Source: Escherichia phage C6 | Strand: one strand, 5' to 3' | Sequence record: MW679410.1 | Length of the DNA: 64,000 bases | Part shown: positions 3,323 through 57,801 of the stretch, in pieces | Layout: every line of letters begins with the position of its first letter | Numbering within the stretch: the first letter of the stretch is position 1 | Position numbers and translations under genes: made by a program | Notes under the pieces: model-generated | The model's database searches: none | What the model saw: the letters and a program-made list of their open reading frames with translations, nothing else | What the model was told of the DNA's origin: nothing

Positions 3323-4171
3323 TTAATAAACGTAATCGTATATAATACCAGCTTCTAAAGCGGTGCGATGAATAATTCGACCATTACGAGATTCTTGTAC
3401 ATCAACCTCCGGATAGTCGGTAATCATTTTTTGAAGTGTGTATCGGTGCAAATAATACGGGCTATCCGGGTCATCTGTTTTCCAGTCTTGCCCAGCAATA
3501 GTCATTTTCTGAATTTCATCCATAACCCACCAACCACACCAGATATAAGCCGAATTGCGTACTGGCAATGGATGCACATAAGGTAATTCACCGTCAGGAA
3601 CAGGTGCTACTTTAGCTGTGACTGTTACATTACCAGTTTTCGTAACAGTCGTCGGGTTATAATCAGTCGCCGAAACCACAACAGAAACTTCAATAACCTG
3701 TGAACCTTCAGCGCCTGTATCGATTGCTAGAGTATCCGTGGTGCCAGCAACAGGAGAACCGTCTTTCTTCCAAGAATAGGCAAAAGTAGCTCCACTCGGT
3801 GCGCCGACGACATCCGCTTTAAAAGAGGCCGGGGTGTCTTCCGGAACATTAATTGATTCTGGGGTTAATGTCACAGAAACATCAGACATAGTTTTATTCT
3901 GGATAGTTAAAGTTGTTTCGGCTTCAGCAGTTTCCGGTTCGCCTTCCGTTGGTGTAGTTGTTGCAACAACTTTAATAGTCTTACTGCCTGCTGGACCAGC
4001 TGCGACATAATCCATTGCTGCAGTCACAGAAGATTGAGGAACGCCATCAACGGTCCAGACAAATGATTCGGTACCTTCAGCTGCAGCACCGGAACCGGTC
4101 GCAGTGAAATTGGTTGTTGCTCCAATAACGGCCGTAGCCGCCAAAGGAGCAATAGTTACGGTATAAGCCAT
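3323..4171 (-). CDS. hoc: Hoc outer capsid decoration protein (short form)
   Basis: 282 aa; Ig-like repeat region plus conserved C-terminal capsid-binding region (...IWCGWWVMDEIQKMTIAGQDW...) as in T4 Hoc. Confidence 0.85.
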   Translation of the reverse strand: MAYTVTIAPLAATAVIGATTNFTATGSGAAAEGTESFVWTVDGVPQSSVTAAMDYVAAGPAGSKTIKVVATTTPTEGEPETAEAETTLTIQNKTMSDVSVTLTPESINVPEDTPASFKADVVGAPSGATFAYSWKKDGSPVAGTTDTLAIDTGAEGSQVIEVSVVVSATDYNPTTVTKTGNVTVTAKVAPVPDGELPYVHPLPVRNSAYIWCGWWVMDEIQKMTIAGQDWKTDDPDSPYYLHRYTLQKMITDYPEVDVQESRNGRIIHRTALEAGIIYDYVY

Positions 4172-54264: not shown

Positions 54265-54807
54265 ATGAAAATTTATCATTTTTATTTTGACACAAAAGAA
54301 TTTTACAAAGAAGAAAATTATAAACCAGTTAAAGGTCTTGGTCTCCCGGCTCACTCAACTACAAAGGAACCATTGGAACCTAAAGAAGGTTTCGCAGTTG
54401 TATTTGATGAACGTAAGCAAGATTGGATTTATGAAGAAGACCATCGAGGCAAACGTGCATGGACTTTTAATAAAGAAGAAATCTTGATAAATAACATAGG
54501 AAGCCCGGTCGGTATAACTTTCGATAAACCTGGCGAGTTTGATATATGGACCGATGATGGTTGGAAAGAAGATGAAACATATAAACGAGTAATGATTCGC
54601 AATCGAAAAATTGATGGGTTTTATAAAGAATTCCAGGTATTAAGTAATATGGTTGAAGCCTCAGTCGCTGATAAGAAAGAAAAATTCTATCACCAGAATC
54701 TTAAACGTTTCTTTGCTCTTTTAGAAAAACACGAACACCTCGGCGGTGAATTCCCGGAATGGCCTGAAAAAGAACAGAAGCCTTGGTATAAGAGATTTTT
54801 CAAATAA
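54265..54807 (+). CDS. 38: gp38 tail-fibre assembly chaperone (T4-type)
   Basis: 180 aa; MKIYHFYFDTKEFYKEENYKPVKGLGLPAHST... near-identical to T4 gp38. Confidence 0.95.
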   Translation: MKIYHFYFDTKEFYKEENYKPVKGLGLPAHSTTKEPLEPKEGFAVVFDERKQDWIYEEDHRGKRAWTFNKEEILINNIGSPVGITFDKPGEFDIWTDDGWKEDETYKRVMIRNRKIDGFYKEFQVLSNMVEASVADKKEKFYHQNLKRFFALLEKHEHLGGEFPEWPEKEQKPWYKRFFK

Positions 54808-54844: not shown

Positions 54845-55498
54845 ATGGAACCAAAAGTAGGATTTTCATTATCAGACCTACTTTTTGGACTTCTTGATAG
54901 AATTTTTAAAGATACTTCTTCCGGGAAAGTAGTTTTTTCCCGGGTCCTAGTCGTGATATTATTGTTCTTTATGGCACTGGTTTGGTATAAAGGCGAATAT
55001 ATTCTAAACTTTTACAAAGAGACAACTTATGCCTCTTATACTGAAATGATTAGACAAGACCAGGACAATAGATTTAAAATTGCGGCTATCGAGCAGCTCC
55101 GAATAGTGCATTCTTCTTCAGGTGCAGACTTCACAGCAATATATTCTTTTAGGCCGACCAACATGAATTATTTTGTGGATATGGTAGCTTACGAGGGTAA
55201 ATTACCGGAAACGGTAGACGCAAAAAACACGGGAGGGTTTCCAATTGACAAAACGTCAGTAGAATATATGGCGGGAGTTAACGGGAACTATTTTGAATCA
55301 AGTACCGAAACTGTATTCCTTCCTACAAAGAAGAAAACACAATTCACGTATATGTTTTCATGCCCGTTTTTTAATTTGGATAACGTCTACGCCGGCTCGA
55401 TATCGTTGTACTGGTACGATATCAAACCGGATTTAGGATTTCCTAGACTTTCGTCTATGTGCGGTCAAGCCGGAAGGACATTAGGTCGAACACGTTAG
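54845..55498 (+). CDS. t: holin T
   Basis: 217 aa; single N-terminal TM and large periplasmic domain, collinear with T4 T. Confidence 0.95.
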   Translation: MEPKVGFSLSDLLFGLLDRIFKDTSSGKVVFSRVLVVILLFFMALVWYKGEYILNFYKETTYASYTEMIRQDQDNRFKIAAIEQLRIVHSSSGADFTAIYSFRPTNMNYFVDMVAYEGKLPETVDAKNTGGFPIDKTSVEYMAGVNGNYFESSTETVFLPTKKKTQFTYMFSCPFFNLDNVYAGSISLYWYDIKPDLGFPRLSSMCGQAGRTLGRTR

Positions 55499-55770
55499 AA
55501 ATTGGAGGTATACATCATTAAGTAACGGTGTATATCTTCATATCCTTCATTAAATTGCTCAATAAGAGTTTCACGCTCATCTTCAGTTAAAGACTTAAAT
55601 AATTTGTTATAAGACAAACCATTAAGTTCCTTTCCATGTTCATTACGAATACCTAACTCATTCAAAAAGGCAATAAACTCATCACGACGTTGCATGATGT
55701 CTTCACAATCCGTTTTAATCAAAATGGAAACAATAGTGGCAATTTCGGAAACGATTTCAATTTTAGTCAT
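55495..55770 (-). CDS. asiA: anti-sigma70 factor AsiA
   Basis: 91 aa; ...IVSILIK...FIAFLNELGI...EQFNEGYEDIHRYLMMYT matches T4 AsiA. Confidence 0.9.
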   Translation of the reverse strand: MTKIEIVSEIATIVSILIKTDCEDIMQRRDEFIAFLNELGIRNEHGKELNGLSYNKLFKSLTEDERETLIEQFNEGYEDIHRYLMMYTSNF

Positions 55771-55802
55771 AATATTCTCTTCAATTCAGTACGTCATTAT
55801 CT

Positions 55803-55841
55803 GATAGGGCTATACTAACATATCCTTAGGGATTGTAAACA
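55803..55841 (-). promoter_or_regulatory. early-type promoter (GTTTAC-N17-TAGTAT) for asiA
   Basis: Motif family member about 35 nt upstream of asiA. Confidence 0.55.
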
Positions 55842-55951
55842 TGTTCTTCGTTCTTTTTAACATATTCCTGATACATCTCTTCTATTGGTTCCTGGAACTT
55901 AAAATCAGCTCCCAGGAATTCCTCAAAGCACTCCTGCTCACGTGTACGCAT
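55826..55951 (-). CDS. hypothetical 41-aa acidic micro-ORF
   Basis: Hand-called MRTREQECFEEFLGADFKFQEPIEEMYQEYVKKNEEHVYNP; 3' end overlaps the asiA promoter -35. Confidence 0.3.
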   Translation of the reverse strand: MRTREQECFEEFLGADFKFQEPIEEMYQEYVKKNEEHVYNP

Positions 55952-55956
55952 GCCTG

Positions 55957-56082
55957 TTACGGTATTGACTCATAGCCTTTACCCTTATGTTTCTGTTTAC
56001 GTTTAGACTCTTTAAGATTTTTCTTCTTGTCCTTATGGACAGACGCCTTATTGAAATCGTGCTTAGCTACCAGATTGTTCAC
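55957..56082 (-). CDS. hypothetical 41-aa highly basic micro-ORF (GTG start)
   Basis: Hand-called (M)NNLVAKHDFNKASVHKDKKKNLKESKRKQKHKGKGYESIP with AAGGA SD; different frame from the adjacent acidic ORF. Confidence 0.3.
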   Translation of the reverse strand: MNNLVAKHDFNKASVHKDKKKNLKESKRKQKHKGKGYESIP

Positions 56083-56344
56083 GTAATTTCCTTAATTGGT
56101 ATTCAAGAGAGCTGATAATTTCTTTATTAGTTGCAATATACATATCACGTAGGAATGGCTTCAAACCTTCCATATTCCCATGGATTGTCTTAGAACTAAT
56201 ATTCTTTATATATTCGTGGTCTAATGCATCCCAAGCCGGTTGGTTGACATAAGTTCCCCAATTATCTTCCACCATGACATTCAGTCGTTTAATATGGTTA
56301 ATATGGGCTTCGATTGCATCAATCTGGAGTTGTTTAAGATTCAT
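56063..56344 (-). CDS. hypothetical protein (arn position)
   Basis: 93-aa track ORF between asiA and motA; size as T4 Arn (recalled as about 92 aa), identity not verified. Confidence 0.5.
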   Translation of the reverse strand: MNLKQLQIDAIEAHINHIKRLNVMVEDNWGTYVNQPAWDALDHEYIKNISSKTIHGNMEGLKPFLRDMYIATNKEIISSLEYQLRKLREQSGS

Positions 56345-56841
56345 TAGTAAAGGTCCTCAGAGTAAAGTTCTTTTTCACTACCGCCACGTTCAATACAAAC
56401 TTGACCAGCATAAGTCGCAATAATCATTGCTTCTTCACGGGTCCAATAGTTTGAATATTGGTCAATAAATCCTTGGTCATCACCACAGACATGGTCTGTC
56501 ACAAGTTTATCACTTACCTGGTCTAGCACTTCTGCCATATCTTTAGAATAATGACGAGCGCCAGGAATAACCAGAGTCCCACCATCTTTTAACTTAAAGC
56601 GGTTGGCTGCGCACACAATTCGACGTTGATATTTTTCATTATTGTTCCAATGAGCAATCTGCCAACAGATTTCAGGAACCTCTTCTAAAACATCCTCTTC
56701 CGTATATTCGGTGTAGTCGCCATAGGCCTGTAATTTAGCTGCTAGACTTTCGGGCGTCTCACGAGAAAGAGCTTTATCTAATAAAGCCATTCGGTCTTTA
56801 AAGGATAATTCTTTACCTTTTAATGGATTCATTTGAACCAT
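56344..56841 (-). CDS. hypothetical protein
   Basis: 165-aa track ORF. Confidence 0.5.
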
Positions 56842-57158
56842 CCTTTAACACGCTGCCATAAAGTTTTCTGTTGAGCTTTATTAACACCAATTGAACGAAT
56901 AACCGGCTGTGATTCCTGGTATTCTTTATAGTCGGCTTTATAGACTTCATAAGCCGCTGGAACAAAGGTGCTGATTGCTGCCATAAAGTTCTTACGAATT
57001 CCCATAGAAGCTTCAGAACCACCACGGATGATTAAGTATTTACCTGCTTTAATCTTAACAATAGTGCCGAGATAAGCACCGTGGTACCAAATGTCCCAAC
57101 CTTCTTGAGTAGGTTCTGCACAACGACGAAGTTCATTAACAATATTCAGCTTGTTCAT
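56829..57158 (-). CDS. hypothetical protein (motA.1 position)
   Basis: 109-aa track ORF. Confidence 0.5.
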
Positions 57159-57168
57159 AATAATTTCC

Positions 57169-57801
57169 TCAGATTGCGTTGGTTACGGTTTTGATAACTT
57201 CAGATGATACGTTTTGGAAGTCGATATAAGTATTCTTACCACCGGTCTTAATCTTAACATCAAGATTCAAGGAAGTAAACACTTGTTTTTCTTTATCAGT
57301 CATATTATAACCGAAGATACGCATCATGCCATCACGGCGGACTTCAATTTGACGAATACCATTGGTACGTTTGGCGAATCGAACTTCAAGGTTGCTACGG
57401 TTTTCAGCAATTTCACGAATCTCGATACGGTCTTCTAATAAAGCTTTAACTTCATCAGCCAGTGTTACCATTTCAGGAGTAACACCACGTGAACTGCGTG
57501 TTTTACGTTTTTCCAACATCTCTGGGGCATTTTCAGAAGCGAACAGGTCGGCAGCTTTTTGAACTAAGTCCATTGCTTCACCTGTAGCCACTAAACCGTC
57601 GCCAGATTTTTCGATGAATCCTTTCTTAATCAATACACCGATGTTAGAGTTAACTACCGCAGCACTAAATTGCTCACTCAGGGCTTCACGGACTTCGCCT
57701 GAAGTGATGAAGTTATGCTTGATGATATGTACTAAGATCGAAGCAGTTTTTTCATTCAGGGCGTCTTCAGAAGCTTTGATGATATAAGTAATTTTAGACA
57801 T
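57169..57801 (-). CDS. motA: middle-transcription activator MotA
   Basis: 210 aa; MSKITYIIKAS...NSNIGVLIKKGFIEKSGDGL... matches T4 MotA. Confidence 0.95.
   Translation of the reverse strand: MSKITYIIKASEDALNEKTASILVHIIKHNFITSGEVREALSEQFSAAVVNSNIGVLIKKGFIEKSGDGLVATGEAMDLVQKAADLFASENAPEMLEKRKTRSSRGVTPEMVTLADEVKALLEDRIEIREIAENRSNLEVRFAKRTNGIRQIEVRRDGMMRIFGYNMTDKEKQVFTSLNLDVKIKTGGKNTYIDFQNVSSEVIKTVTNAI

What the first reader, a model, noticed from the sequence alone, without database searches (positions are those of the whole stretch)
55826..56082. Two adjacent 41-codon ORFs in different frames, one highly basic and one acidic, between asiA and the arn-position gene
A GTG-initiated K/R-rich ORF is followed 5 nt later, in another frame, by an ATG-initiated acidic ORF whose 3' end runs into the asiA promoter. 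They could be two genuine micro-proteins, or one gene split by a frameshift (real or programmed).
Basis: seen in the sequence. Interest (0 to 1): 0.45.

Follow-up and report, generated by a model that had tools for sequence, protein, structure and literature searches.

The report
Two real phage micro-genes, one clipped
The two 41-codon ORFs are two separate, conserved small early genes of T4-like phages; an 11-base deletion seen only in this genome has cut the head off the second, and bacterial relatives of the first (basic) one are built like ribosome-rescue factor genes, which suggests a function that can be tested.

Summary
On the minus strand, a GTG-started basic ORF (55957-56082) is followed 5 nt later, in another frame, by an ATG-started acidic ORF (55826-55951). 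They are not one split gene.

**Basic ORF.** It belongs to Pfam DUF7230 / PHROG 1359. It is under clear protein-level selection and occurs in about 1,500 phage genomes. T4 also has it, but the reference record does not annotate it.

**Acidic ORF.** It is the tail of an AsiA.1-like gene that is 52-54 aa long in every relative.

**The deletion.** In relatives the two genes overlap by 11 nt (ATGAGTCATAA). This window lacks 11 bp at that point. I found the resulting junction in no other public sequence. The loss puts the AsiA.1-like start codon out of frame, leaves a 41-aa remnant starting at Met12, and adds Ile-Pro to the basic protein.

**Possible function of the basic protein.** DUF7230 also has chromosomal bacterial members. 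Most of them carry a covarying 17-27 bp hairpin or terminator inside the ORF, right after the conserved basic core. That arrangement is the regulatory signature of arfA and brfA. The phage genes lack the hairpin and stop normally. I therefore propose that the basic protein is an unregulated ArfA-like ribosome-rescue factor (about 0.35). Sequence homology to ArfA is not supported.

The parts
55957..56082 (-). Basic micro-gene, 41 aa here and 39 aa in close relatives. Member of Pfam DUF7230 / PHROG 1359. GTG start. Its last two codons (Ile-Pro) and its stop codon were created by the 11-bp deletion.
   Evidence: PF23876, 51.4 bits against a cutoff of 27; phrog_1359, E 1.4e-22; tblastn hits in 1,510 phage records; codon-position variability 0.14/0.15/0.49 over 19 diverse loci.
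56089..56093 (-). Shine-Dalgarno-like AAGGA, 6 nt upstream of the GTG start, inside the 3' end of the arn.2 homologue.
   Evidence: Sequence. Relatives have comparable purine-rich boxes and mostly ATG starts.
55965..55967 (-). Junction of the 11-bp deletion. ATAACTTAGAG (or TAACTTAGAGA) is missing relative to all relatives; placement is ambiguous by 1 nt.
   Evidence: Alignment; blastn against phage 04086. The junction sequence is absent from the GenBank phage collection, IMG/VR and all 15 Dhakavirus loci fetched.
55938..55973 (-). Ancestral AsiA.1-like start codon with its ribosome-binding region. It now opens an out-of-frame 11-codon ORF (MSQYRNRHAYT*) that reads across the Met12 ATG.
   Evidence: compare the intact starts.
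55826..55951 (-). Remnant of the AsiA.1-like gene, corresponding to residues 12-52 of the 52-aa protein of IME08/Bp7. It is 100% identical to those residues and starts at the internal Met12.
   Evidence: (phrog_5245, E 1.3e-24, aligned to profile positions 12-52 of 53).
55812..55839 (-). Promoter-like site (TTTACA, 16 nt, TG-n-TAGTAT) in front of asiA, overlapping the 3' end of the remnant ORF.
   Evidence: consensus match only. The sequence is conserved in relatives.
55495..55770 (-). asiA (anti-sigma-70), the downstream neighbour.
   Evidence: PF09010, E 6e-22; phrog_1166.
56063..56344 (-). arn.2 homologue (Phage_T4_Y16C), the upstream neighbour. Its last 20 nt overlap the start of the basic gene.

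Best explanation
This is the motA-asiA early-gene cluster of a Dhakavirus, a JS98/IME08-like T4-type phage. The two ORFs are two independent, conserved micro-genes. Gene 1, the basic one, encodes a 39-41 aa Lys-rich protein of family DUF7230. Gene 2, the acidic one, is the homologue of T4 asiA.1 and is normally 52-54 aa. In all relatives the stop codon of gene 1 lies inside the first codons of gene 2 (ATGAGTCATAA), the usual T4 translational-coupling layout. In this genome an 11-bp deletion at that overlap does three things. (i) It replaces the C-terminus ...GYES* of gene 1 with ...GYESIP*, a region that varies across the family, so gene 1 is most likely unaffected. (ii) It leaves the original start codon and ribosome-binding site of gene 2 reading an 11-codon out-of-frame peptide. 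(iii) It deletes or frameshifts the conserved MSHNLE N-terminus of gene 2. The 41-codon acidic ORF exists only because this subclade has Met at position 12. If it is translated at all, that would have to be by re-initiation after gene 1 terminates 5 nt upstream, since it has no Shine-Dalgarno sequence of its own. So asiA.1 is most likely inactivated or crippled, which is tolerable because asiA.1 knock-down in T4 has no fitness cost. These steps are shown: gene identities, purifying selection, the deletion and its consequences for the reading frames. These are inferred: the expression level of the remnant, and function. For gene 1, I commit to the following as the most likely mechanism (about 0.35). 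It is a small ribosome-binding factor that works like ArfA or BrfA. Its basic tail would probe the empty mRNA channel of ribosomes stalled on cleaved (non-stop) mRNAs, and its conserved N-terminal motif would recruit a release factor. Unlike its bacterial relatives, the phage would make it from a normal mRNA with a stop codon, free of control by tmRNA.
For: Identity and context: the window is up to 96.9% identical to Dhakavirus genomes. The annotated gene order in IME08, Bp7 and JS10 is arn.2, small ORF(s), asiA.

Gene 1 is real. It matches DUF7230 at 51 bits and phrog_1359. Intact ORFs, mostly with ATG starts, occur in 29 diverse phage loci. Third-position variability is 0.49 against 0.14 and 0.15 at positions 1 and 2. 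It is annotated in RB59 and present in T4 at 161580-161699. An exhaustive HMMER search finds 104 clusters at 50% identity.

Gene 2 is AsiA.1-like. It matches phrog_5245 at E 5e-35. T4 AsiA.1 (phrog_3762) also hits phrog_5245 at E 2.6e-4. BLASTP of the two N-termini gives E 3e-6 with identical MSHNLE. Both sit immediately upstream of asiA. Third-position variability is 0.22 against 0.10 and 0.07.

The two genes are independent. A 93-aa gene separates them in JS10, and arn separates them in T4.

The deletion. It is unique to this genome. Position 12 is Gln in VR5, VR20, VR26 and the L011 locus. Across 40-64 kb all large genes are intact, and this is the only non-3n indel inside a conserved CDS.

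asiA.1 is dispensable: the CRISPRi-ART supplement scores the knock-down 'Not Fit' (PMC11879866).

Rescue-factor reading. DUF7230 has chromosomal bacterial members. They lie next to mnmG-rsmG, between rarA/crcB and serS, next to rtcR, and in one case in a single ORF with an RsmD-type 16S rRNA methyltransferase. In 17-18 of 23 bacterial loci a strong hairpin or a GC stem plus T-run sits inside the ORF directly after the conserved core, with z from -2 to -8. None of the 30 phage loci has one. In 10 Methylococcales genes, 18 of the hairpin's 24 pairs show compensatory changes and 0 of 500 shuffles reach the observed values. The peptide encoded there is not conserved. An in-ORF terminator or RNase III site that yields a non-stop mRNA is the documented shared feature of arfA and brfA (PMC6881298). 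The protein is predicted to be largely unstructured (pLDDT 71), as expected for a tail that folds only on its target.
Against: Whether the 11-bp deletion is a true mutation or an isolated assembly error cannot be settled from sequence. The remnant is 100% identical to the relatives' residues 12-52, so there has been no decay. That fits a very recent event, an artefact, or retained function.

Function of gene 1. Homology to ArfA is not supported: hhalign probability is 0.2-0.5%, Pfam ArfA gives no hit at E<10, and the profile finds nothing in PDB sequences. Only an RK-x-KH stretch is shared. Many non-T4 phage members join the N-terminal motif to acidic tails or zinc ribbons, which does not fit an mRNA-channel probe. 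Some bacterial members (SAR86 type) lack the hairpin. In short bacterial members the stop codon lies inside the hairpin, so production of a non-stop mRNA there would need RNase III cleavage, which was not shown. Gene-neighbourhood links to translation are suggestive but not uniform. No expression data were found for the ORF in T4.
Confidence: 0.85

Rival explanations
1. One gene split by a frameshift, or read as one protein by programmed ribosomal frameshifting between the basic and acidic ORFs.
For: The two ORFs are adjacent and in different frames, and there is a real indel at their junction.
Against: No relative has a fused ORF. With the 11 bp restored, the two genes are still in different frames and each has its own start. 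They belong to different families. Another gene separates them in T4 and JS10. DUF7230 occurs without AsiA.1 in many phages and in bacteria.
Confidence: 0.02
2. The 11-bp deletion is a sequencing or assembly artefact, and the phage really carries the normal overlapping pair (a 39-aa and a 52-aa gene).
For: The junction is found in no other public sequence. The downstream remnant has no further damage.
Against: An 11-bp loss in non-repetitive sequence is not a typical read-error pattern. The rest of the 24 kb examined has intact long genes and no other frame-breaking indel inside a conserved CDS. asiA.1 is dispensable in T4, so a real loss is plausible.
Confidence: 0.15
3. The truncated AsiA.1-like protein (41 aa from Met12) is still made, by termination-reinitiation after the basic gene, and keeps its function. 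On this reading the deletion is a neutral re-wiring rather than a knock-out.
For: The stop codon of gene 1 lies 5 nt before the Met12 ATG. The most conserved central block, CFEEFLGADFKFQEP, is retained. The remnant is undamaged.
Against: There is no Shine-Dalgarno sequence at a working distance. Ribosomes starting at the retained ancestral ATG read through the Met12 ATG in another frame. The MSHNLE N-terminus, the part shared with T4 AsiA.1, is lost. Met12 is Gln in other Dhakaviruses.
Confidence: 0.3
4. The DUF7230 protein is not a ribosome-rescue factor. It is some other small basic early effector, for example a nucleic-acid or RNA-polymerase binder, or an inhibitor or decoy of a host protein recognised through the N-terminal motif.
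For: There is no detectable homology to ArfA, to PDB sequences or to T7 gp1.1. It sits in a cluster of transcription-takeover genes (motA, asiA). The N-terminal motif is combined with acidic or zinc-ribbon tails in other phages.
Against: This reading does not explain why bacterial homologues keep a covarying hairpin or terminator inside the ORF right after the core. It also does not explain why they sit beside mnmG/rsmG, serS and rtcR, or fused to an RsmD-type methyltransferase.
Confidence: 0.5
5. Neither ORF is coding; both are chance ORFs in AT-rich intergenic DNA.
For: ORFs of 41 codons are common by chance (about 248 per 64 kb in shuffles).
Against: Both show a purifying-selection signature and family membership.
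Confidence: 0.01

Closest known systems
Pfam DUF7230 (PF23876) / PHROG 1359, for example RB59_255 and the unannotated T4 ORF at 161580-161699
   Same: The HMM match is well above threshold. The core N-x-VAK-x-DFN-[KR]-x3-H-x-D-[KR]-K ... RKQKHKG is the same, the size is the same (38-44 aa in T4-likes), and so is the place in the motA-asiA early cluster.
   Different: GTG start instead of ATG. Two extra C-terminal residues (Ile-Pro) created by the deletion. No function has been described for the family.
T4 AsiA.1 (T4p256, phrog_3762) and its Dhakavirus/Tequatrovirus counterparts (phrog_5245)
   Same: Position immediately upstream of asiA, acidic 50-54 aa protein, shared N-terminal half (MSHNLE...E.F.EF) in the relatives.
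   Different: The window copy lacks the first 11 codons and its own translation start. The C-terminal halves of the T4 and Dhakavirus proteins are not alignable.
ArfA (PF03889), the RF2-dependent alternative ribosome-rescue factor of E. coli
   Same: A small protein with a Lys/Arg/His-rich tail (RK-x-KH). Bacterial DUF7230 genes, like arfA, run through a hairpin or terminator placed just after the functional core and end in a non-conserved, often hydrophobic tail (PMC6881298 and PMC6299226 for ArfA).
   Different: No statistically supported sequence similarity. KGKGS is not a conserved motif of DUF7230. The phage genes have an ordinary stop codon and no hairpin. RF2 recruitment is untested.
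BrfA of Bacillus subtilis (PMC6881298) and ArfT of Francisella (PMC6299226)
   Same: They set a precedent: unrelated small basic proteins have repeatedly evolved into release-factor-dependent rescue factors. brfA also carries an intrinsic terminator inside its ORF, as do L050, L053, L045 and L069 here.
   Different: No sequence relationship was tested or claimed. The ArfT motif KKGGSTNKK is absent from DUF7230.
T7 gp1.1 (Pfam Phage_1_1)
   Same: A 42-aa, very basic early phage protein of unknown function.
   Different: A separate Pfam family with no profile similarity.

Membership tests
Pfam DUF7230 / PHROG 1359 | Profile HMM match above the curated threshold | tested here: met
   PF23876 at 51.4 bits (cutoff 27), E 1.2e-13; phrog_1359 at E 1.4e-22.
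Pfam DUF7230 / PHROG 1359 | Conserved core N3, V5-A6-K7, F10-N11, H16, D18, K20 and the RKQKHK block | tested here: met
   All invariant and nearly invariant columns of the 38-sequence alignment are present in the window protein.
Pfam DUF7230 / PHROG 1359 | Protein-coding conservation rather than DNA or RNA conservation | tested here: met
   Mean pairwise differences by codon position are 0.14 / 0.15 / 0.49 across 19 loci from Escherichia, Klebsiella, Enterobacter, Serratia, Aeromonas and other phages.
AsiA.1-like (phrog_5245; related to T4 AsiA.1, phrog_3762) | Profile match and position directly upstream of asiA | tested here: met
   The remnant hits phrog_5245 at E 1.3e-24, aligned to profile positions 12-52 of 53. 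Synteny is shown.
AsiA.1-like (phrog_5245; related to T4 AsiA.1, phrog_3762) | Full-length ORF starting MSHNL[EQ], with its own start codon overlapping the upstream gene | tested here: not met
   The 11-bp deletion removes or frameshifts codons 3-11. The ancestral ATG now reads MSQYRNRHAYT*.
ArfA (PF03889) | Sequence or profile similarity to ArfA | tested here: not met
   No Pfam ArfA hit at E<=10 for the window protein or for 10 bacterial members, and none at E<=1 for 100 further members. hhalign probability 0.2-0.5%. No PDB hit.
ArfA (PF03889) | Conserved KGKGS motif in the mRNA-channel tail | tested here: not met
   The window protein ends ...KGKGYES, but this position is variable in the family. 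Only RK-x-KH is conserved.
ArfA / BrfA-type regulation (works-like test) | The ORF runs through an RNase III hairpin or intrinsic terminator placed after the functional core, so that the product comes from a non-stop mRNA | tested here: inconclusive
   The hairpin or terminator is present in 17-18 of 23 bacterial DUF7230 loci, with covariation. It is absent from the window gene and from all 30 phage loci. mRNA 3' ends were not measured.
ArfA / BrfA-type function | [quoted passage not shown] | not testable with these tools
   Needs a biochemical release assay, cryo-EM or genetics.
Programmed ribosomal frameshift gene | A single functional product spanning both frames, and a fused or frameshift-linked arrangement conserved in relatives | tested here: not met
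   The two ORFs are separate genes in all relatives, and a third gene separates them in T4 and JS10.

The most novel reading that the evidence does not exclude
DUF7230 is a previously unrecognised family of release-factor-dependent alternative ribosome-rescue factors. In bacteria (Methylococcales, other Gammaproteobacteria, some Bacteroidota) it would be made, like ArfA and BrfA, from a non-stop mRNA created by a conserved hairpin or terminator inside the ORF, and so be switched on only when trans-translation fails. T4-like phages, including T4 itself where the gene is unannotated, would carry a stripped-down 38-44 aa version with its own stop codon. That version would be an always-on rescue factor expressed early in infection, freeing ribosomes stalled on mRNAs cut by phage or host nucleases (RegB, RnlA/LsoA, ToxN and similar) without tagging the products for degradation.
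Probability: 0.35. Interest if true: 0.8.

Novelty: new member of a known kind. Interest (0 to 1): 0.5.

Why it matters
For this genome the result is an annotation fix. Call two small genes, flag the second as truncated by a private 11-bp deletion, and do not call a frameshifted fusion.

The wider value lies in the basic gene. It is one of the most widely conserved small ORFs of T4-like phages, with tblastn hits in about 1,500 phage records. It is nevertheless missing from the T4 reference annotation and from the T4 gene table used by the one genome-wide screen I checked (CRISPRi-ART). It has no known function.

The link found here gives a specific hypothesis that is cheap to test. Bacterial homologues carry a covarying hairpin or terminator inside the ORF, as arfA and brfA do, and they sit next to translation genes. 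This suggests that phages bring their own ribosome-rescue factor. If true, it would add a viral, deregulated member to the set of alternative rescue systems and a new player in the contest over mRNA cleavage during infection. It would also reveal a rescue factor in bacterial lineages, although I could not check whether those lineages also carry ArfA or ArfB.

Tried and rejected
1. ArfA homology, suggested by 'KGKGY' and 'RK.KH'. The profile found nothing in PDB sequences. hhalign against an ArfA alignment gave probability 0.2-0.5% with three different DUF7230 alignments. No member hit Pfam ArfA. Rejected as homology and kept only as an analogy. The ArfA alignment was shallow (Enterobacteriaceae only), so very remote homology is not excluded.
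2. T7 gp1.1 relationship: it is a separate Pfam family and hhalign found nothing.
3. ArfT: the published motif KKGGSTNKK is absent. Burroughs & Aravind link ArfT to a different family.
4. Structure: AlphaFold2 on a 100-sequence alignment gives a mostly coil peptide with pLDDT 71. A fold search would be meaningless for this, so I did not run one.
5. Gene context of DUF7230 in non-T4 phages (L031, L033) gave no useful clue.
6. NCBIfam has no model for DUF7230, and none for ArfA either.
7. Literature. No paper mentions DUF7230. Searches for asiA.1 and arn.1 were swamped or empty. Searches for T4 ribosome profiling or unannotated ORFs gave nothing relevant. The main texts of the HIDEN-SEQ and CRISPRi-ART papers do not mention these genes; only a CRISPRi-ART supplement does. 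The ToxIN-escape paper concerns asiA itself and was not pursued. No paper on a phage-encoded ArfA-like factor was found.
8. Looking for the same deletion elsewhere turned up nothing: exact-junction searches in GenBank phages and IMG/VR, an exact-protein look-up, and seven contigs encoding an identical Arn.2 protein all show the intact junction or no record.
9. Phage 04086 proved a poor reference for judging assembly quality, because that record itself looks fragmented. I therefore judged the window by the integrity of its own long ORFs.
Full report
**1. What is in the sequence.**
The window is a T4-type phage of the genus Dhakavirus (JS98/IME08/Bp7 group). The 1.1 kb around the finding is up to 96.9% identical to IME08, and 608 phage records match. 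All relevant genes lie on the minus strand. In order of transcription they are:
- motA (57169-57801)
- arn.4-like (56829-57158)
- arn.3-like (56344-56841)
- arn.2-like (56063-56344)
- the basic ORF (55957-56082, GTG start)
- the acidic ORF (55826-55951)
- asiA (55495-55770)

Holin t converges on the plus strand. A promoter-like site (TTTACA, 16 nt, TG-n-TAGTAT) at 55839-55812 overlaps the end of the acidic ORF in front of asiA. ORF length alone is not evidence. Shuffled sequence yields about 248 ORFs of at least 41 codons per 64 kb, and antisense ORFs of 44 and 42 aa cover the same DNA.

**2. Comparison with close relatives: an 11-bp deletion.**
Alignment with IME08, Bp7 and JS10 shows that the window lacks 11 bp (ATAACTTAGAG) which all relatives have. 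With those bases present:
- The basic ORF is 39 aa and ends ...KGKGYES*.
- The acidic ORF is 52 aa and starts MSHNLENTVTGMRTREQ....
- The two overlap in ATGAGTCATAA, so the stop codon of the first gene lies within codons 3-4 of the second.

In the window:
- The basic ORF reads two more codons (Ile-Pro) to a new TAA.
- The original ATG of the second gene (55973) now opens an out-of-frame ORF, MSQYRNRHAYT*.
- The 41-codon acidic ORF starts at what was Met12. In other Dhakaviruses (VR5, VR20, VR26 and the L011 locus) residue 12 is Gln, so the apparent ORF start is an accident of this subclade.

IME08's own annotation of an 80-aa CDS here begins at a non-start codon and is an over-extension of the 52-aa gene.

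**3. Is the deletion shared or real?**
- A 46-nt probe spanning the junction matches nothing among 50,697 GenBank phage records.
- The exact junction is absent from IMG/VR.
- The exact 41-aa basic protein is not on record.
- Seven public contigs that encode an Arn.2 protein identical to the window's all have the intact junction, as do all 15 Dhakavirus loci fetched.

The rest of the window looks well assembled. gp34, gp35, gp36, gp37, gp38, t, asiA, motA, gp52 and others are intact. In a comparison with phage 04086, this is the only indel that is not a multiple of three and lies inside a conserved CDS. The remnant is 100% identical to residues 12-52 of the IME08/Bp7 protein. The event is therefore recent, or an isolated assembly error, and sequence alone cannot decide between these.

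**4. The two ORFs are two different genes.**
- The basic ORF matches Pfam DUF7230 (51 bits, cutoff 27) and PHROG 1359.
- The acidic ORF matches PHROG 5245.
- T4 AsiA.1 (PHROG 3762) also matches PHROG 5245 over residues 1-28. It shares MSHNLE...E.F.EF with the Dhakavirus protein (BLASTP E 3e-6) and occupies the same position directly upstream of asiA.
- In T4/RB59 the order is arn.1, 39-aa ORF, arn, asiA.1, asiA. In JS10 a 93-aa gene separates the two.

So there is no split gene and no programmed frameshift.

**5. Both are under protein-level selection.**
- DUF7230: over 25 ungapped codons in 19 loci from phages of Escherichia, Klebsiella, Enterobacter, Serratia, Aeromonas and others, mean pairwise differences by codon position are 0.14, 0.15 and 0.49. 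Starts are mostly ATG behind purine-rich boxes. The window's clade uses GTG, 6 nt after AAGGA.
- AsiA.1-like gene: the values among seven Dhakavirus loci are 0.10, 0.07 and 0.22.
- tblastn finds the basic protein in 1,510 phage records and the acidic one in 184.
- T4 carries the 39-aa ORF at 161580-161699. It is not annotated in NC_000866.4, nor in the gene table used for the CRISPRi-ART screen.
- The same supplement scores knock-downs of asiA.1, arn, arn.1 and arn.2 as 'Not Fit'. I read this as no detectable fitness cost, which fits a tolerated loss of the asiA.1 homologue.

**6. Likely consequence of the deletion.**
Gene 1 should be unaffected, because its C-terminus is variable across the family. 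Gene 2 has lost its conserved N-terminus and its own initiation region. Met12 has no Shine-Dalgarno sequence at a working distance. Ribosomes that start at the retained ancestral ATG read across it in another frame. The only plausible route to a product is re-initiation after gene 1 terminates 5 nt upstream. I rate retained function at about 0.3.

**7. What might the basic protein do?**
An exhaustive profile search of 1.84 billion representatives finds 104 clusters. The conserved unit is N-x-VAK-x(1-4)-FN-[KR]-x3-H-x-D-[KR]-K. In T4-likes an invariant RKQKHKG tail follows it. Other phages attach acidic tails or zinc ribbons instead. AlphaFold2 predicts a mostly unstructured peptide.

I first suspected ArfA because of the KGKGY and RK-x-KH stretches. 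Homology is not supported by the PDB profile search, Pfam or hhalign. The same is true for T7 gp1.1.

**8. The bacterial relatives.**
Context look-ups showed that some family members are chromosomal bacterial genes. A scan of one genome per species found 22 loci. They include complete genomes of Methylotuvimicrobium buryatense, Methylomicrobium sp. wino1 and Methylobacter tundripaludum, plus Pseudomonadales, SAR86, Bacteroidales and Flavobacterium MAGs. They score 36-72 bits on DUF7230. Databases name the close relatives of the M. buryatense protein only 'DUF7230 family protein' or 'hypothetical protein'.

Their neighbours include:
- mnmG-rsmG, divergent, confirmed by Pfam in L066; four other Methylococcales loci show the same ORF layout upstream
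- rarA-crcB-[gene]-serS
- rtcR
- in one case a single ORF joining the motif to an RsmD-type 16S rRNA methyltransferase

In these bacterial genes the ORF does not stop after the conserved core. It runs into a long hairpin, and in several cases continues for 20-40 non-conserved, often hydrophobic codons. In L050, L053, L045 and L069 the hairpin is a classic GC stem followed by a T-run. In ten Methylococcales genes the hairpin has these properties:

| Measure | Value |
|---|---|
| Base pairs | 24 |
| Pairs with compensatory changes on both sides | 18 |
| Cells forming a standard pair | 93% |
| Shuffles reaching any of the five measures | 0 of 500 |
| Covariation score | 0.72 (slid controls at most 0.17) |

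Across all loci, 17-18 of 23 bacterial genes have such a structure within 90 nt of the core (z from -2 to -8). None of the 30 phage loci does. In the T4-like phage genes, including the window gene (z -0.3 to -0.9), a stop codon follows 18-36 nt after the core; non-T4 members run longer but also lack the hairpin.

**9. Inference and its limits.**
Four things point to DUF7230 being a ribosome-rescue factor family, with the T4-like phage gene as a deregulated 'mature-form' version:
- the in-ORF RNA hairpin or terminator that arfA and brfA also have
- small size
- a basic tail
- translation-related neighbours

This is inference. No homology to ArfA was detected. Some bacterial members lack the hairpin. 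In the short bacterial genes the stop codon lies inside the hairpin, so a non-stop mRNA would need cleavage. The acidic-tailed phage members do not fit a channel-probing tail. I put the rescue-factor reading for the phage protein at about 0.35. No paper describing it was found.

**10. Verdict.**
As a feature of this window it is ordinary: new members of two known families of unknown function, one of them damaged. Its interest comes from the testable functional lead for a very widespread and under-annotated phage micro-protein.

Noticed in passing
L007 2081-2200 (-) = T4 NC_000866.4 161580-161699: T4 itself encodes the 39-aa DUF7230 protein (MNNLVAKHNFNKASVHKDKKKAFKESNRKQKHKGKVYDY), overlapping arn and arn.1. 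The reference record and the CRISPRi-ART gene table do not list it; RB59 does (RB59_255).
   Followed up: yes
L060-L066, L068, L070, L071 (about 4085-4170); also L045, L049-L054, L058, L059, L069: Bacterial DUF7230 genes contain a covarying 17-27 bp hairpin or an intrinsic terminator inside the ORF just after the conserved core, as arfA and brfA do. Phage copies lack it.
   Followed up: yes
L055 3971-4675 (+) (Pseudomonadales MAG, downstream of rarA): A single ORF joins the DUF7230 N-terminal motif (residues 11-35) to an RsmD-type 16S rRNA methyltransferase domain (Cons_hypoth95, residues 54-228). Whether this is a true fusion or an upstream in-frame extension was not resolved.
   Followed up: partly
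window 54265-54807 (+): The window's gp38 is a 180-aa protein beginning MKIYHFYFDTKEFYKEENYKP. From memory this resembles the T4-type tail-fibre assembly gp38. The closest relatives (IME08, Bp7, JS10, L037-L039) carry a 257-267 aa gp38 (Pfam Gp38_N/GP38 on L037-L039). This suggests a swapped distal tail-fibre module.
   Followed up: no
window 55000-57200: tblastn finds no homologue of T4 arn (the DNA-mimic inhibitor of McrBC) or arn.1 anywhere in the 64-kb window. JS10 has an unrelated 93-aa gene at the arn position.
   Followed up: partly
L001 1927-2169 (-) (IME08 YP_003734389): The annotated 80-aa CDS starts at a non-start codon (ATT; translation ISIRLL...). It is an over-extended call of the 52-aa AsiA.1-like gene, and the 39-aa DUF7230 gene that it overlaps is not annotated in IME08 or Bp7.
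   Followed up: yes
L002 3620-4110 (-) (Bp7) and L044 (phage 04086): The Bp7 record splits motA into two CDS. Phage 04086 (177 kb, only 148 features) shows split topoisomerase genes and duplicated joins. Both are probably frameshift or assembly problems in those public records.
   Followed up: no
P0223 (169 aa): A protein with four tandem copies of an FNRDGIHKDTKNEYDPNG-like repeat hits the DUF7230 profile at residues 8-21. It may be a chance match to a repeat family.
   Followed up: no
L051, L052, L054, L049, L045, L069 (C-termini of bacterial DUF7230 proteins): Several full-length bacterial products end in ...LAA, ...KAA, ...IAA, ...AVA or ...MVA, which recalls the C-terminus of the SsrA degradation tag. 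Whether this is a ClpXP degron is pure speculation.
   Followed up: no
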